Shown piece after piece: positions 49,890 through 58,566 of a stretch of DNA of 64,000 nt; position 1 is the stretch's first letter; each line of letters begins with the position of its first letter. This DNA is from Nitrosopumilus sp. GTDB taxonomy: Archaea > Thermoproteota > Nitrososphaeria > Nitrososphaerales > Nitrosopumilaceae. The stretch lies in NCBI GenBank assembly GCA_013215285.1, contig JABSRD010000001.1, positions 418,919 to 482,918 on the forward strand, given 5' to 3'. The position numbers and the translations under genes were made by a program. The notes beneath the pieces are model-generated. The model saw only the letters and a list, made by a program, of their open reading frames with translations, searched no databases and had not been told where the DNA came from.

Positions 49890-49963
49890 GGGCCCGTAAC
49901 TCAGCTTGGTAGAGTAACCGGCTCATAACCGGTGAGCCAAGGGATCGAAGCCCTTCGGGCCCA
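49890..49963 (+). tRNA. tRNA with CAT anticodon, probably tRNA-Ile2 (elongator Met not excluded)
   Basis: GGGCCCG/CGGGCCC acceptor, ACCGG-CT CAT AA-CCGGT. It lacks the initiator A1:U72 pair, and the GGGCCC acceptor resembles archaeal Ile2. Confidence 0.9.
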
Positions 49964-49964
49964 T
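49947..49964 (+). repeat. attL: GAAGCCCTTCGGGCCCAT
   Basis: 3' end of the CAT tRNA, identical to 51894-51911. Confidence 0.92.
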
Positions 49965-50007
49965 ACCCTTTTTCATCTTTATTTAGTCCCAAAACTATTA
50001 TCATAAC

Positions 50008-50967
50008 ATGGAATTAAACATAATTTCAGAAGAAGGAGAGGCATATCAAAACTTTGTAGACTCTGTACGAGATTCTGAAATATTAAGAAAATACAATGGC
50101 TATCTGAAATATTTTCTTGAACTAATTCCAAATCCAATGTATAAAGAATATCTTGGATACGAACCAAAATCCAGAGATGTAGAGGATCTTGCAAATGCTT
50201 TTGTTGGAATTGCATTGAAAAATGTAAAAAACGCTAAAGGGATTGTACGTGCATATGTTAGAGAACTAAAAACACTCTATGAGAAAAATGAATTGAAACC
50301 AGCTACCCTCAAAAATAGAATTAAACCCATCAAGAAATTATGTAAAGCAAATGATGTTGAGATATCGTGGCATCTTGTAGACCAATCATTGCCTTTGCCT
50401 GGAAAGAGTAAAGATAGGGCATATACAAGAGATGAACTTCAAAACATGGTTAATTCTTCAGTAAAGCTTGTCGACAAAGTGATAATCACAATGTCTGCCT
50501 CTGGAGGATTTAGAGTAGAATCATGGAATTATTTTTGTTGGAAAGACTTGATATTTTTCAAAAACAATGATGGCACATACAAAGGAGCTGCATTGTTGAT
50601 TTATCGTGGGGATATTGAAGAATATGTCACATGTATTACTCCTGAGGCTTGTAATTATTTGCAATTGTATAGAGAAGAATGGAAAAAACGATTTTTGAGA
50701 TATCCTGAACCTGATGATCCAATACTTGTCAATGTACGAAATTCAAGAATAACTAGACTTGGAATGAATGGTGTTAGACGGAGAATGATAACAATTGCAG
50801 AGACAATTGGTATGAGACCACCATTAACTAGAGAGAAAAATAGACATGATGTAATGATTACTCATGGATTTAGAAAATCATGGAGTACTAATATGCGACG
50901 TGCAAAAGTTGATTTTGCCGACAAGGAGGAGATGATGGGTCACACCATAGCTCAAGAAAAATCATAG
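50008..50967 (+). pseudogene. Tyrosine recombinase/integrase, truncated before the catalytic Tyr
   Basis: SGGFR (Arg I), HGFRK (HxxR), MGH. The frame then runs into IS-derived sequence and stops with no Tyr. Confidence 0.8.
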
Positions 50968-51374
50968 CAAGTGGTAAAAAATTAGTATCTAAAAATCCAA
51001 ACTATGTATTAACTGACTGTCTTAACTCATATCAAGAAGCAATAAGAGAGGAATTTGAAAACAGAACCGCACATGTAAAAACTAAGTCTCTAAAGGAAGG
51101 ATTCGTAAACAGACCTATCGAGAGGTATCACAATGAAATTAGAGAAAGACTCAAAGCTAGACGTGGATTAGGTAATGATAAATCTGCACAAACATTTTCC
51201 GAACTGTTAAAGATTAATCATAACTTTGTGAAACCACATCAAGGATTAGATGGACAAACATCAGCTCAAGCTGCAAATATTGAATTGAATCTTGGTAGTA
51301 ACAAGTATTTTGATTTGATTAAACAATCTACAACAAAACCCAACTTTGTAAATAATTTAGGAAAGAGAATCTAG
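50950..51374 (+). pseudogene. C-terminal fragment of a DDE transposase (IS6/IS240-like)
   Basis: No start codon. Frame reads ...PNYVLTDCLNSYQEA...NRPIERYHNEIRERLKARRGL...HNFVKPHQGLDGQTSAQAA. Confidence 0.75.
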
Positions 51375-51555
51375 AATCTGCCCTTGGTTCTATAAATGAA
51401 TTGATTGATAATCTTGGAAAGAATTAATCAAACCTGTTCGAATCCAAAATAATCACTAAAAATGTTCAAATTCCGTGGACCATTTTTTCAAATGCTCTTT
51501 AAAATAACATACAGATGGTAATATATGAAAATATACAAACTAATTTGATTTGTAT

Positions 51556-51690
51556 ATGATTGAATTTTTAATTCCAGTTATATTTCTGGCTTTGATTATA
51601 TTTTGGAAAAGAGATCTGTTTACTATACCAAATAATTCTACAGATGAATTTTCAGATGGGTCCATACCAATTAAGAATAAAACTACGTAA
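51556..51690 (+). CDS. Putative 44-aa single-pass membrane peptide within the element
   Basis: MIEFLIPVIFLALIIFWKRD... ATG to TAA. Confidence 0.4.
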   Translation: MIEFLIPVIFLALIIFWKRDLFTIPNNSTDEFSDGSIPIKNKTT

Positions 51691-51893
51691 TATGAAATAT
51701 TAGGAAAAATATCGTCAGAGGTTGATGGCAGTAATGATGCAATGAAGATTTATGGTGTGGTGGAGATAGTGGACATGGTGGAAATACTTTGTGGTTTTGT
51801 GGATAAATTTTTAATTAATATGGATATGTGTATGATGTAGGATTTTTACAAAATCAACTCATTCTGGGACTTGAATTGTCATAAAAATCATTA

Positions 51894-51911
51894 GAAGCCC
51901 TTCGGGCCCAT
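51894..51911 (+). repeat. attR: GAAGCCCTTCGGGCCCAT
   Basis: Identical to the tRNA 3' end at 49947-49964. Confidence 0.92.
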
Positions 51912-51953
51912 TTTCTTTCCATTAGTTTTAAAATGAGCAAACTCAAAACCTGT

Positions 51954-52018
51954 TGGCTGCAATGAAGAATCAGAGTTATATCTGAATGATGATTGGAAGG
52001 CATTTGTCTGAGCTGCCA
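51954..52018 (+). ncRNA. Box C/D guide sRNA (dual guide)
   Basis: C box ATGAAGA 51962-68, D' CTGA 51982-85, C' ATGATGA 51986-92, D CTGA 52008-11. Terminal stem TGGCTGC/GCTGCCA, and a TTTTAAAA box about 25 nt upstream. Confidence 0.85.
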
Positions 52019-52022
52019 GAAC

Positions 52023-52628
52023 TCATTTACTAATTTGGTTTTTCACTTTTTCTAAAACACTTTCATCTAAAAGATTTTGATCGTACAATGATTCTGTAAT
52101 TTGTAAAATATTTAGAATTGAATGCATCTTTACACCTAATTCAGATAATGCTTTATCTGCCCCTTCCATCCTGTTGACAATTACATATGCATCTTTAACT
52201 ATCACATTAACTTCTTTTAGAGATTTTATTGCATTTACAACAGAACCTCCAGTAGTTGCTACGTCATCAATCATAACTACTTTCATTCCATCATGAATTT
52301 TTCCTTCAACTGATTTTGAAGTACCATAATCTTTTGGTTTGCTTCTTACGTAGATTAGCGGTTTTACTGTTTCAATAGCTAGTGCTGATGCAATAATTAA
52401 GCCTCCTGTTGGTACTGACACAATTGAGTCAAATTTATCGAATCCTATGTTTTGTGCAATATCATTTTCAAGATATTTTACCATTTTTCGAAATTCTTGA
52501 GGATAACTTGGAACTAGTCTTAAATCTACATAGTATGAACTCTTTTTTCCACTAGCAAGTGTAAATTCTCCAAATTTTATAATTTCATTTTGATGCAAAA
52601 ATGTTGCAAATTCTTTTACAAACTCCAT
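52023..52628 (-). CDS. pyrE: Orotate phosphoribosyltransferase
   Basis: FTLASGKKSSYYVDLR, KDYGT, IDDVATTGGS. Confidence 0.96.
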   Translation of the reverse strand: MEFVKEFATFLHQNEIIKFGEFTLASGKKSSYYVDLRLVPSYPQEFRKMVKYLENDIAQNIGFDKFDSIVSVPTGGLIIASALAIETVKPLIYVRSKPKDYGTSKSVEGKIHDGMKVVMIDDVATTGGSVVNAIKSLKEVNVIVKDAYVIVNRMEGADKALSELGVKMHSILNILQITESLYDQNLLDESVLEKVKNQISK

Positions 52629-52678: not shown

Positions 52679-53761
52679 ATGCCTGAAATTTGGTTAAATT
52701 ATGGGATCACAGACGTTGTTTTAGATATAAAGGCAGAAAATTTAGAGCAAAAAATTGATTCTGATGGAAAAATTTTGGAAGATTCAGAAATCAATGAAAA
52801 ACTTGAGAATATTGATTTATCCAAACCAATGGAACTTGTAGTTTTACACAATTCAAAATCAATTCAAAAAATTATTTCATCATTATTTACTTTATGTGAG
52901 CAAAAATCAAAACCATTCCCAAAAATTTTAGCTGAGAAAAAAATCCTAAATTTAGTCAAAGCAGGATTACCTGAGGGAATCTCAATTAATGAATTTGATG
53001 ATGTTGAAATCTCAAATTCAAATCTTGTATTTATGGGCGAAATGGAATTTGATGGATTATTTGGATATGAAACAATTTCAACACGTCTCATCAAAAAATT
53101 TGGTTTAGAATCTATGCTTACAGCATATGCAAAAAGACAGGGAAATCTTCCAACACCTGGACAGTATACTGAAAGTTTTACAGAAGCAAAAAAATTCTCT
53201 GACAATTTTGAAATTCAAGGAATTGAAATTATTGCAAATTCGCAAGGCATACTTGATTTTTCTATAGGTCACCCCTCAAAAACTCTCTCTACAACAAAAA
53301 TTTTAGAGTCCAATTCAATCAAAGATATGGGTCAACATAAAACAATGATAATCAGTACTGGTAAGGATGCAAGTAATGATAACCTTGGAAATTCTTTTTC
53401 TTCACTTTGGAATTGCTCAAATGCAATTAAAAAAGATGGCCTGGCAATTTTAGTAGCTGAATGTAAGGGTGGTTTAGGCTCAGATGCACTTCAACAATTC
53501 ATTGAAGATAGATTAACTTTGGAACAATTACGAAATCCTACAAAATACATTAACGGAATGGAAGATTTATTATTTCTATCAGAAATACAAAAGAATTTTC
53601 AAATTGCTTTGGTTTCAATTCTTCCAGAATTTTATGCAAAAAAACTTAACATGATTTCTCTACCTGGTATGAAATATTCTATGGATTATATTTTAAAAAC
53701 ACAAGGCGTAAAGCAAAAAGTTGCAGTAGTTGCAGATGGCGCTCGACTTTTATTAAGATAA
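52679..53761 (+). CDS. Hypothetical protein resembling the LarA/DUF2088 family
   Basis: N-terminal EIWLNYG and C-terminal GLAILVAECKGGLG...VVADG, reminiscent of the lactate racemase fold. Confidence 0.55.
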   Translation: MPEIWLNYGITDVVLDIKAENLEQKIDSDGKILEDSEINEKLENIDLSKPMELVVLHNSKSIQKIISSLFTLCEQKSKPFPKILAEKKILNLVKAGLPEGISINEFDDVEISNSNLVFMGEMEFDGLFGYETISTRLIKKFGLESMLTAYAKRQGNLPTPGQYTESFTEAKKFSDNFEIQGIEIIANSQGILDFSIGHPSKTLSTTKILESNSIKDMGQHKTMIISTGKDASNDNLGNSFSSLWNCSNAIKKDGLAILVAECKGGLGSDALQQFIEDRLTLEQLRNPTKYINGMEDLLFLSEIQKNFQIALVSILPEFYAKKLNMISLPGMKYSMDYILKTQGVKQKVAVVADGARLLLR

Positions 53762-58309: not shown

Positions 58310-58403
58310 GTCGTAATTTGGTATTTTCTTTGCTTTATACCTATTTTGAGCACGTTTTCAATTGGCGTTACGTTAATAGATGAGAATCTGACACCATTAT
58401 TCA

Positions 58404-58519
58404 AGCCGGCCATAGCGTTAGGGTGCGACCCAATCCCATTCCGAACTTGGAAGTCAAACCTAATGTCGCTGTTGTGCTACTAAGATGCGAGAGCTCTTGG
58501 GAAGCAACAGTGCTGGCAT
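58404..58519 (+). rRNA. rrf: 5S rRNA (unlinked from 16S/23S)
   Basis: GCCGGCCATAGC...CCCATTCCGAAC..GGAAGTCAAAC...TGCTGGCA, with helix I closing GCCGGC/GCTGGC. Confidence 0.93.
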
Positions 58520-58566
58520 TTTCTAATTTACAATCTTTTAATATTGAATTGATTGATTTGATTTTG

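What the first reader, a model, noticed from the sequence alone, without database searches (positions are those of the whole stretch)
51954..52018. Dual-guide box C/D sRNA apparently targeting two neighbouring 23S rRNA sites (H69 and H71)
Seen: complete C-D'-C'-D architecture, a terminal stem and an upstream TATA box, directly after attR (so originally just downstream of the tRNA). The D' guide contains TCAGAGTTA (complement UAACUCUGA) and the D guide contains AAGGCATTTG (complement CAAAUGCCUU). From memory of conserved TACK-type 23S rRNA (...GGUAACUCUGACCCUCUUAAGGUAGCCAAAUGCCUUG...), both complements lie about 15 nt apart, near E. coli positions 1911-1919 and 1935-1944. By the N+5 rule the targets would be adenosines near 1912 and 1938. 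The 23S gene is not in the window, so the targets are unverified. AOA are thought to have few C/D guides, and these are often unannotated.
Basis: partly seen in the sequence, partly recalled or inferred. Interest (0 to 1): 0.7.

Follow-up and report, generated by a model that had tools for sequence, protein, structure and literature searches.

The report
Conserved rRNA methylation guide RNA
This is a real, unannotated 65-base box C/D guide RNA of marine ammonia-oxidising archaea whose two guides match neighbouring sites of 23S rRNA; it belongs to a known kind and has close counterparts in Sulfolobus, Ignicoccus and eukaryotes.

Summary
Window 51954-52018 (+) holds a complete C-D'-C'-D architecture, which occurs once in the window against 0.00-0.01 in shuffles.

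The 23S rRNA of 11 named ammonia-oxidising archaea (AOA) carries both guide complements, 15 nt apart, at E. coli 1911-1919 and 1935-1944. The N+5 rule predicts 2'-O-methylation of A1912 (helix 69 loop) and A1938 (H70/H71 junction).

The RNA is present in 79 of 80 related metagenome loci and in three named genomes. It is 97% conserved, against 66% at third-codon positions of the neighbouring gene. Every guide position paired with rRNA is invariant. Variation falls on unpaired positions, the D'-C' linker and the stem mismatch. A conserved TATA box lies about 26 nt upstream.

Two corrections. The conserved C' box is UGAUUG (51990-51995), which makes the D spacer exactly 12 nt. The second target lies 5' of H71 rather than in it.

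It is not a new kind. Ignicoccus sR109 has the identical D guide and Sulfolobus sR125 matches 11/12; both were predicted to target the same adenosine. Eukaryotic SNORD15 shares the same guide register.

A discrete transcript and the methylations remain unproven.

The parts
51916..51934 (+). Conserved promoter core TTTCCATTAGTTTTAAAAT. The TATA box TTTTAAAA is at 51926-51933, about 26 nt upstream of the inferred RNA 5' end.
   Evidence: This is the only conserved block in the 43-nt spacer between tRNA-Met and the sRNA across 72 relatives. The consensus is nttnnTTTCnATTAGTTTTAAAATnAGc..., and the spacer as a whole is 76% identical. It lies downstream of attR, so the insertion did not remove it. 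Promoter function is inferred from archaeal promoter geometry.
51954..51960 (+). 5' strand of the terminal stem (TGGCTGC).
   Evidence: It pairs with 52012-52018. G2, G3, G6 and C7 are invariant in 31 variants. Position 5 is never paired. The MFE fold forms this stem.
51962..51968 (+). Box C, AUGAAGA (RUGAUGA with U5 changed to A).
   Evidence: UGAAGA is invariant in 31 variants; only R varies, A or G. The same UGAAGA variant occurs in the RNA-seq-identified sRNAs Sac-sR125, IHOsR109, MKAsR4, MKAsR9 and MKAsR16-18.
51969..51981 (+). D' guide, 13 nt (AUCAGAGUUAUAU). Positions 3-12 counted from D' pair with 23S E. coli 1910-1919 (9 Watson-Crick pairs plus 1 G-U). N+5 falls on A1912 in the helix 69 loop.
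   Evidence: This is the best complementarity in the AOA rRNA operon L080 and it meets the N+5 criterion. E. coli numbering comes. It is invariant in 31 variants except position 1 in one sequence.
51982..51985 (+). Box D' (CUGA).
   Evidence: Invariant in 31 variants.
51986..51989 (+). D'-C' linker (AUGA), the loop of the K-loop.
   Evidence: It varies in sequence and in length (4-6 nt, with indels) among relatives, while both sides are fixed.
51990..51995 (+). Box C' (UGAUUG; UGAUGG in some relatives), a degenerate form of UGAUGA.
   Evidence: UGAU is invariant. The alternative register ATGATGA (51986-51992) is broken to ATGGTGA or ACGATGA in more than 10 variants. MAFFT aligns this hexamer with the C' boxes of IHOsR109 and Sac-sR125.
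51996..52007 (+). D guide, 12 nt (GAAGGCAUUUGU). Positions 2-11 form 10 Watson-Crick pairs with 23S E. coli 1935-1944. N+5 falls on A1938.
   Evidence: Positions 2-11 are invariant in 31 variants. Only the two unpaired end positions vary: position 12 is G or A, position 1 is U or A. It is 12/12 identical to the D guide of IHOsR109.
52008..52011 (+). Box D (CUGA).
   Evidence: Invariant.
52012..52018 (+). 3' strand of the terminal stem (GCTGCCA).
   Evidence: It ends 4 nt before the stop codon of the convergent gene. This gap is 3-6 nt in 78 relatives.
52023..52628 (-). Convergent neighbour, orotate phosphoribosyltransferase. It is the synteny anchor and not part of the RNA.
   Evidence: Pfam Pribosyltran, and the name given by the sources.
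49890..49963 (+). tRNA-Met(CAT), the ancestral upstream neighbour of the sRNA. Its last 17 nt form attL.
   Evidence: In relatives the tRNA ends 43 nt upstream of the sRNA on the same strand.
49964..51910 (+). Inserted element of 1,947 bp, carrying a tyrosine-integrase-like ORF (50008-50967) and ending in attR (51894-51910). It separates the tRNA from the sRNA in this genome only.
   Evidence: 17-nt exact direct repeat. Phage_integrase scores 27.0 bits against a cut-off of 27.1. The element is absent from the relatives, whose tRNA 3' end abuts the sRNA promoter.

Best explanation
Window 51954-52018 (+) encodes a double-guide archaeal box C/D sRNA of about 65 nt.

Inferred mechanism:
1. It is transcribed from its own TATA promoter.
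2. Boxes C and D form a K-turn closed by the short terminal stem. Boxes D' and C' form a K-loop.
3. L7Ae, Nop5 and fibrillarin assemble on these motifs.
4. The D' guide pairs with the 23S helix 69 loop strand (E. coli 1910-1919).
5. The D guide pairs with the H70/H71 junction (E. coli 1935-1944), 15 nt further on in the same pre-rRNA.
6. Fibrillarin methylates the 2'-OH of the nucleotide paired to the fifth guide base upstream of each D-type box, which is A1912 and A1938.
7. Simultaneous binding of both guides would also hold this subunit-interface region during folding.

Shown here: the architecture, the complementarity to real AOA 23S, purifying selection focused on the paired guide positions, the conserved promoter core, and near-identity of the D half to published crenarchaeal sRNAs.

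Inferred only: a discrete transcript, protein binding, and methylation.
For: - Architecture. The full pattern occurs once in the window, against 0.00-0.01 in shuffles. Many archaeal sR models align full length, the best being sR14 at 24.6 bits, E = 2e-4 locally and 0.02 window-wide.
- Targets. All 11 AOA 23S loci carry both complements. These are the best sites in the rRNA operon for each guide. Both have a Watson-Crick pair at N+5 inside a 10-bp duplex. This meets the criterion of at least 9 bp and the 100-nt double-guide criterion of Dennis et al. 2015.
- Chance. Random guides hit both sites within 100 nt in 2 of 3000 trials.
- Selection. The RNA is present in 79 of 80 syntenic metagenome loci and in named genomes. 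Identity to the window is 97.0% for the sRNA, 66.5% for third-codon positions of the neighbouring gene, and 76.3% for the upstream spacer.
- Pattern of variation. Among 31 variants all rRNA-paired guide positions are invariant. The D guide varies only at its two unpaired ends, and the D'-C' linker takes indels.
- Spacers. They are 12 nt (D) and 13 nt (D').
- Known relatives. IHOsR109 has the identical D guide (12/12) and Sac-sR125 matches 11/12. Both have the same UGAAGA box C and layout, and a predicted target A2204, which equals E. coli A1938.
- Eukaryotic counterparts. The SNORD15 consensus and snoMe28S-Am2589 share AGGCAUUUGUCUGA, 14/14.
- Hotspot. Helices 68, 69 and 71, and the surroundings of A1912, are known archaeal methylation hotspots.
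- RNA runs. The 65-mer occurs exactly in RNA-seq assemblies of a cultured organism and in metatranscriptomes.
Against: - No discrete small RNA was seen. In every RNA-seq assembly the 65-mer sits inside a longer contig (340-7440 nt) without strand or end information, and DNA carry-over cannot be excluded.
- It reaches no Rfam gathering threshold.
- The terminal stem shows no covariation; it is simply invariant.
- The fold is no more stable than shuffles, z = -0.45. This is normal for C/D RNAs but gives no support.
- Box C (U5 to A) and box C' (UGAUUG) deviate from consensus.
- The D' spacer is 13 nt and its duplex starts at position 3, with an A-A mismatch at position 2.
- The cognate 23S of this very MAG was not available, and the read-laying check on the target region was blocked.
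- Genes for L7Ae, Nop5 and fibrillarin were not found among the 16 window ORFs scanned against Pfam (6 neighbours of the locus, 10 ORFs of suitable size). Their presence in the genome rests on general knowledge.
Confidence: 0.85

Rival explanations
1. It is a genuine C/D sRNA, but only the D guide directs methylation (A1938). The D' guide acts as an accessory or chaperone pairing element, or methylates the neighbouring A1913 rather than A1912.
For: - The D' spacer is 13 nt rather than 12.
- Positions 1 and 2 next to D' are a G-U pair and an A-A mismatch, so the duplex occupies positions 3-12.
- The crenarchaeal helix 69 guides IHOsR91 and Sac-sR113, and yeast snR63, aim at the neighbouring nucleotide. 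That is A2179 in the pan-archaeal alignment, E. coli 1913, yeast Am2256.
- Dennis et al. describe double guides in which one arm only assists.
Against: - The D' guide is as invariant as the D guide across 31 variants.
- N+5 is a Watson-Crick U-A pair inside a 10-bp duplex, which meets the published criterion.
- Sac-sR125 also has a 13-nt D' spacer.
- A1912 lies within the published hotspot.
Confidence: 0.2
2. It is an rRNA-folding chaperone only. The RNA binds both strands around helix 69 to helix 71 during assembly, and no methyl transfer matters.
For: Dennis et al. propose a chaperone role for double guides. Mesophiles have few 2'-O-methylations.
Against: All box elements needed for fibrillarin placement are invariant. 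Both guides keep the exact N+5 register. For the D guide this register is shared with eukaryotic SNORD15, snoMe28S-Am2589 and snR13, whose target adenosine is known to be methylated. A chaperone role is compatible with methylation rather than an alternative to it.
Confidence: 0.07
3. It is not a trans-acting guide. Instead it is a cis element of the neighbouring genes: a bidirectional terminator, a 3'-UTR structure of the orotate phosphoribosyltransferase mRNA, or a tRNA-Met trailer.
For: It lies 4 nt past the stop codon of the convergent gene and originally lay 43 nt after tRNA-Met. RNA-seq contigs run through it into both neighbours.
Against: - The stem is weak and the fold is not better than shuffles.
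- Conservation is highest in the unstructured guide segments and matches 23S, not the neighbouring genes.
- A conserved TATA box sits between the tRNA and the RNA.
- The element stayed intact and identical after a 1.95-kb insertion cut it off from the tRNA.
Confidence: 0.03
4. It is a chance resemblance to C/D boxes in AT-rich intergenic DNA.
For: It falls below every Rfam gathering score. Single 10-bp hits to rRNA occur for about 8-10% of random guides.
Against: The pattern is expected 0.00-0.01 times per window. The joint two-guide hit occurs in about 7 of 10,000 trials. The sRNA is 97% conserved where synonymous sites are 66%. The D guide is identical to that of a published sRNA.
Confidence: 0.01

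Closest known systems
Ignicoccus hospitalis sR109 and Sulfolobus acidocaldarius sR125 (RNA-seq-identified C/D box sRNAs, Dennis et al. 2015, PMC4644070, Additional file 1)
   Same: - D guide GAAGGCAUUUGU is identical in sR109 (12/12) and 11/12 in sR125.
- The register to box D is the same, so the predicted target is the same: 23S A2204 in their alignment, which is E. coli A1938.
- All share the unusual box C UGAAGA, CUGA followed by A, a 4-nt D'-C' linker and a 12-nt D spacer.
- sR125 also has a 13-nt D' spacer.
- The second guide also aims at the helix 69 region.
   Different: - Their D' guides target G2172 (E. coli G1906, the base of helix 69), 6 nt upstream of the AOA target A1912, and the D' guide sequences are unrelated.
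- Their C' boxes are closer to consensus (UGAGGA, UGAUGA) than the AOA UGAUUG.
- The terminal sequences differ.
- Common descent is plausible but not proven, because the rRNA target dictates the guide sequence.
Ignicoccus hospitalis sR91 and Sulfolobus acidocaldarius sR113 (helix 69 loop guides)
   Same: They contain (A)UCAGAGUUA, pairing with the same 23S UAACUCUGA(U) segment. sR91 is also a double guide joining helix 69 with the start of H71 (A2179 and G2211, which are E. coli A1913 and G1945).
   Different: There the helix 69 guide is the D guide, not D'. It is one nucleotide closer to the box, so N+5 is E. coli A1913, not A1912. The partner guide targets G1945, not A1938.
Eukaryotic SNORD15 (U15), yeast snR13, Drosophila snoMe28S-Am2589 and plant SNOR75
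   Same: The 3' guide plus box D, AGGCAUUUGUCUGA, is 14/14 identical to the SNORD15 consensus and to snoMe28S-Am2589. snR13 guides Am2280 and Am2281 in the H70/H71 methylation cluster. Am2281 corresponds to E. coli A1938 using the offset psi2258 = 1915 (this step is inference).
   Different: The eukaryotic RNAs are longer (the SNORD15 model is 146 nt), and the rest of each model does not match. Scores are far below gathering (15.9 against 75 bits). This is a functional analogue, and possibly a distant relative, but not a family member.
Yeast snR63 (Am2256 in the helix 69 loop)
   Same: It places a 2'-O-methyl on an adenosine of the UAAC segment of the helix 69 loop, at the A-site tRNA and helix 44 contact.
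   Different: Am2256 corresponds to E. coli A1913. The AOA guide predicts the adjacent A1912.
Rfam Pyrococcus sR families (sR14, sR20, sR11, sR1 and others)
   Same: They have the same size (52-57 nt models) and box layout, and several models align full length.
   Different: All scores are below gathering (best 24.6 against 38 bits). The guides are unrelated.

Membership tests
Archaeal box C/D sRNA (2'-O-methylation guide) | Box C (RUGAUGA) near the 5' end and box D (CUGA) near the 3' end, able to form the tandem sheared G-A pairs of a K-turn. | tested here: met
   AUGAAGA lies at 51962-51968 and CUGA at 52008-52011. The GA of box C and the GA of box D are invariant in 31 variants. The U5-to-A deviation also occurs in published sRNAs.
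Archaeal box C/D sRNA (2'-O-methylation guide) | Internal D' and C' boxes forming a K-loop, joined by a short linker. | tested here: met
   D' is CUGA at 51982-51985. The linker is 4-6 nt and variable. C' is UGAU[U/G]G at 51990-51995 with UGAU invariant. C' is degenerate in its last two positions.
Archaeal box C/D sRNA (2'-O-methylation guide) | Terminal stem that juxtaposes boxes C and D. | tested here: met
   GGC/GCC and GC/GC pairs are invariant, separated by one constant non-pair. 95% of cells are paired against 7-70% in slid controls, with no covariation.
Archaeal box C/D sRNA (2'-O-methylation guide) | Guide spacers of about 12 nt between C and D' and between C' and D; total length about 50-70 nt. 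| tested here: met
   The D spacer is 12 nt, the D' spacer is 13 nt, and the total is 65 nt. The constraint of 10-12 nt guides is described in PMC7994747.
Archaeal box C/D sRNA (2'-O-methylation guide) | At least 9 bp of guide complementarity to rRNA or tRNA, with a Watson-Crick pair at the fifth position upstream of D or D'. | tested here: met
   The D guide forms 10 Watson-Crick bp at positions 2-11. The D' guide forms 9 Watson-Crick bp plus 1 G-U at positions 3-12. N+5 is U-A in both. The test used the 23S of named AOA.
Archaeal box C/D sRNA (2'-O-methylation guide) | Expressed as a discrete, stable small RNA. | tested here: inconclusive
   The exact 65-mer is present in RNA-seq assemblies, but only inside longer contigs, with no strand or end information.
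Archaeal box C/D sRNA (2'-O-methylation guide) | Assembles with L7Ae, Nop5 and fibrillarin. | not testable with these tools
   This needs co-immunoprecipitation or reconstitution. None of the three genes was found among the 16 window ORFs scanned against Pfam.
Archaeal box C/D sRNA (2'-O-methylation guide) | The target nucleotide is 2'-O-methylated in vivo. | not testable with these tools
   This needs RiboMeth-seq or primer extension on AOA 23S.
Orthologous group of Iho sR109 and Sac sR125 | D guide aimed at 23S A2204 (E. coli A1938) in the same register. | tested here: met
   12/12 identical to sR109 and 11/12 to sR125, followed by box D.
Orthologous group of Iho sR109 and Sac sR125 | D' guide aimed at G2172 (E. 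coli G1906). | tested here: not met
   The AOA D' guide pairs 6 nt further 3' (A1912), and its sequence is unrelated to theirs.
Rfam SNORD15 (RF00067) and Rfam Pyrococcus sR families | Score at or above the family's gathering threshold. | tested here: not met
   SNORD15 scores 15.9 against 75 bits. sR14 scores 24.6 against 38 bits.

The most novel reading that the evidence does not exclude
The AOA RNA, Ignicoccus sR109, Sulfolobus sR125 and eukaryotic SNORD15/snR13 descend from one guide RNA that already targeted the A1938-equivalent adenosine before TACK archaea and eukaryotes diverged. In mesophilic AOA it survives as one of very few retained guides, recombined with a helix 69 loop guide. 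That would mark Am1938, and a helix 69 Am, as a minimal core of guide-dependent rRNA methylation at the subunit interface.
Probability: 0.25. Interest if true: 0.5.

Novelty: new member of a known kind. Interest (0 to 1): 0.35.

Why it matters
Box C/D guides are rarely annotated in mesophilic archaea. The paper library held no paper that mentions C/D box sRNAs together with Nitrosopumilus. This locus gives a precise, testable prediction for one of the most abundant archaeal groups on Earth: two 2'-O-methyl adenosines at intersubunit bridge elements, the helix 69 loop and the H70/H71 junction. The second site coincides with a methylation conserved from yeast to human. The locus is also a clean example of the signature that separates real guides from look-alikes: paired guide positions are frozen, while unpaired ends and the K-loop linker drift. 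In practice it flags a gene that pipelines either miss or cover with spurious ORFs. If it is one of few guides kept by a mesophile, it points to the rRNA methylations that matter most irrespective of temperature.

Tried and rejected
- Rfam at gathering thresholds finds nothing here. Only sub-threshold hits appear.
It is broken in more than 10 relatives, while TGAT[T/G]G is conserved and aligns with the C' boxes of known sRNAs.
- Covariation in the terminal stem: none. The stem is invariant.
- Thermodynamic support: none, z = -0.45.
- Discrete transcript: the RNA-seq and metatranscriptome runs laid on the locus are available only as assembled contigs, and the 65-mer always lies inside a longer contig.
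I therefore relied on 11 named AOA 23S loci.
- More distant homologues: three scans of viral contigs gave either no hit (combined pattern) or only matches without any C/D context, judged random.
- Alternative targets inside the window: matches to the guide complements are no more frequent than chance.
- C/D RNP protein genes in the window: none among the 10 ORFs of suitable size.
- Literature on AOA C/D sRNAs: none found in the searchable library.
- Two long assembled contigs carrying the locus carried no organism names.

Full report
**1. What is in the sequence**

Window 51954-52018 (+) reads TGGCTGC A ATGAAGA ATCAGAGTTATAT CTGA ATGA TGATTG GAAGGCATTTGT CTGA GCTGCCA.

- Box C is ATGAAGA, one deviation from RUGAUGA.
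- Boxes D' and D are both CTGA.
- There is an internal C' box.
- The terminal stem pairs at 6 of 7 positions.
- TTTTAAAA lies at 51926-51933.
- A 17-nt exact copy of the 3' end of tRNA-Met (49947-49963) lies at 51894-51910.

A relaxed pattern for the whole C-D'-C'-D architecture matches once in the 64-kb window. It matches 0.00 and 0.01 times per shuffled window.

Rfam has no hit at gathering thresholds. With permissive thresholds a dozen archaeal C/D families align full length on the + strand. The best is sR14, at 24.6 bits against a cut-off of 38, with E = 2e-4 locally and 0.02 window-wide. This is the only such place in the window.

**2. The targets, checked on real AOA 23S rRNA**

The window has no 23S gene. 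I scanned species-representative genomes with a Marine-Group-I 16S primer sequence recalled from memory, so the choice was blind to the 23S target.

Eleven thaumarchaeal loci reached the relevant part of 23S. The eight whose record titles were listed are Nitrosarchaeum, Nitrosopelagicus, Marine Group I single cells, Thaumarchaeota CSP1-1 and a Nitrosopumilaceae MAG; the other three (L086, L111, L119) were beyond the listed rows. All eleven read GTTAACGCCGGGAGTAACTCTGACTCTCTTAAGGTAGCCAAATGCCTTGTCGGGTAAGTT. Both guide complements are there, 15 nt apart.

An annotated E. coli 23S aligns to this stretch without gaps:
- UAACUCUGA corresponds to E. coli 1911-1919.
- CAAAUGCCUU corresponds to E. coli 1935-1944.

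The pairing in detail:
- The D guide forms 10 Watson-Crick pairs at guide positions 2-11, counted from box D.
- The D' guide forms 9 Watson-Crick pairs plus one G-U at positions 3-12.
- In both, position 5 is a U-A pair, so N+5 gives A1912 and A1938.

These are the best sites for each guide in the rRNA operon. They satisfy the published criteria of at least 9 bp, a Watson-Crick pair at N+5, and two targets within 100 nt for a double guide (PMC4644070).

A single 10-bp hit is not rare. About 8-10% of random guides obtain one in 5 kb of rRNA. Both guides hitting within 100 nt of each other happened in only 2 of 3000 random trials.

The second site lies in the non-canonical H70/H71 junction, 5' of H71 (PMC4174444). 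"H71" is therefore only approximately right.

**3. Conservation**

Using the convergent neighbour gene (orotate phosphoribosyltransferase, 52023-52628, minus strand) as an anchor, I fetched 80 metagenome loci whose protein is 82-94% identical.

- The RNA is present in 79 of them. The eightieth contig ends before the site.
- It always lies 3-6 nt beyond the stop codon, on the opposite strand.
- It is also present in Marine Group I SCGC AAA799-E16. It is present too in contigs carrying proteins named for a Nitrosopumilales MAG and for Ca. Nitrosopumilus bin_32a.

Identity to the window over 72 loci:

| Region | Identity |
|---|---|
| sRNA | 97.0% |
| Neighbour gene, whole | 84.7% |
| Neighbour gene, third-codon positions | 66.5% |
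| 43-nt upstream spacer | 76.3% |

The 31 distinct variants (alignment A1) differ only at these places:
- stem position 1 and the stem mismatch;
- the R of box C;
- position 1 of the D' guide, in one sequence;
- the D'-C' linker, which is 4-6 nt long and takes indels;
- C' position 5 (U or G);
- D-guide positions 12 and 1, which are exactly the two D-guide positions that do not pair with rRNA.

Every rRNA-paired guide nucleotide and every core box nucleotide is invariant. This is the expected signature of a functional guide and is the strongest evidence here.

The upstream spacer holds one conserved block, TTTCnATTAGTTTTAAAAT (51916-51934). Its TATA box is centred about 26 nt before the RNA start, which fits an independent archaeal promoter. 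That reading is an inference.

**4. Correction of the anatomy**

TGAT[T/G]G at 51990-51995 is conserved.

MAFFT aligns that hexamer with the C' boxes of two published sRNAs.

With this register the D spacer is exactly 12 nt and its 10-bp duplex occupies positions 2-11, which is the canonical geometry. The D' spacer is 13 nt.

**5. Genomic history**

In relatives, tRNA-Met(CAT) ends 43 nt upstream of the RNA on the same strand.

In this window a 1,947-bp element separates the two. It has a tyrosine-integrase-like ORF at 50008-50967 (Phage_integrase, 27.0 bits against a cut-off of 27.1) and 17-nt att repeats.

The sRNA and its promoter lie just outside attR and are identical to the commonest variant.

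**6. Expression**

The exact 65-mer occurs in assembled RNA-seq runs of a cultured organism (name coded by the tool) and in several sediment metatranscriptomes.

It always lies inside contigs of 340-7440 nt that continue into the neighbouring genes. No strand or end information is available. This shows the region is transcribed or carried over. It does not show a discrete small RNA.

**7. Comparison with what is known**

The supplement of Dennis et al. 2015 lists two RNA-seq-identified sRNAs:
- IHOsR109: GAGGCCCAGTGAAGAGTACTCCCGGAGCTGAAGGGTGAGGAGAAGGCATTTGTCTGAGGGATGAG
- Sac-sR125: TAAAGATGAAGAATTACCCCCGAACCTGAAAAGTGATGAAAAGGCATTTGTCAGATT

Both have predicted targets 23S A2204 and G2172. The paper equates its A2178 with E. 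coli A1912. A2204 is therefore E. coli A1938 and G2172 is E. coli G1906.

The AOA D guide is 12/12 identical to that of sR109 and 11/12 to that of sR125. All three share the UGAAGA box C, CUGA followed by A, a 4-nt linker and a 12-nt D spacer. Their D' guides aim 6 nt upstream of the AOA D' target.

In those organisms the helix 69 loop guide sits in other sRNAs. IHOsR91 has ATCAGAGTTACG before CTGA and Sac-sR113 has CTCAGAGTTACT before CTGA. Their target is A2179, which is E. coli A1913, the equivalent of yeast Am2256. The AOA guide has one extra nucleotide before D', so it predicts A1912 instead. A one-nucleotide uncertainty should be kept in mind.

Among eukaryotes, the SNORD15 consensus and Drosophila snoMe28S-Am2589 share AGGCAUUUGUCUGA (14/14) with the AOA RNA. 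Yeast snR13 guides Am2280 and Am2281 in the same cluster. Am2281 corresponds to A1938 using the offset psi2258 = 1915 (this step is inference).

Helices 68, 69 and 71, and the surroundings of A1912, are described as archaeal methylation hotspots.

**8. Verdict**

This is a genuine, strongly conserved, unannotated double-guide box C/D sRNA of Nitrosopumilaceae-type AOA. Its predicted targets are 23S A1912 and A1938 in E. coli numbering.

It is a new member of a known kind. Its D half matches published crenarchaeal sRNAs and eukaryotic snoRNAs. What is specific to AOA is the pairing of that guide with a helix 69 loop guide, and the degenerate C' box.

I found no paper on C/D sRNAs of Nitrosopumilus in the searchable library.

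A discrete transcript, RNP assembly and the two methylations remain to be shown.

Noticed in passing
window 49964-51910: A 1,947-bp insertion into the 3' end of tRNA-Met. It has 17-nt att repeats (49947-49963 and 51894-51910) and a 319-aa tyrosine-integrase-like ORF (50008-50967; Phage_integrase at 27.0 bits, just under the 27.1 cut-off), plus only small ORFs. In nearly all of the 79 metagenome relatives the tRNA 3' end lies directly upstream of the sRNA promoter, so they lack the insertion. It looks like a minimal or decayed integrative element.
   Followed up: partly
window 51958 and 52014 (stem position 5 and its partner): The single mismatch in the terminal stem varies freely among relatives (T/T, C/T, C/A, T/C, A/A, A/G). 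It never becomes a Watson-Crick or G-U pair in 31 variants. This may reflect selection for a non-pair next to the K-turn, or it may be chance.
   Followed up: partly
window 51969 and 51980: The unpaired positions of the D' guide (A at position 13 and the A-A mismatch at position 2) are invariant in all 31 variants. The unpaired end positions of the D guide, by contrast, vary. This is unexplained. There could be a second target or a structural constraint.
   Followed up: no
window 51970-51985: The 5' half of the D' guide (UCAGA) is complementary to UCUGA, which includes box D'. The MFE fold therefore masks box D' in a 5-bp hairpin. This follows from the rRNA target itself containing UCUGA. Any role is unknown.
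   Followed up: no
window 51854-52003 (-); L208 1203-1499: Mechanical or pipeline ORFs cover the sRNA. In the window there is a 49-aa ORF on the opposite strand. In a public MAG a 98-aa gene is called across the sRNA and tRNA region. These are probably spurious calls caused by the unannotated RNA.
   Followed up: partly
L197 and L200 (upstream of the sRNA): Two relatives lack the tRNA-Met 3' end upstream of the conserved promoter core, and the sequence there is unrelated. ARAGORN finds no tRNA in L200. This points to another rearrangement or insertion at the same junction.
   Followed up: no
window 58402-58521: A stand-alone 5S rRNA gene (79.6 bits) with no 16S or 23S nearby. This fits the unlinked 5S arrangement; in the AOA loci the 16S and 23S genes lie together elsewhere.
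   Followed up: no
window 52679-53761: A conserved 360-aa neighbour protein has only a weak LarA_C (lactate racemase C-terminal) match, 22.8 bits against a cut-off of 25. Its function is unclear.
   Followed up: no
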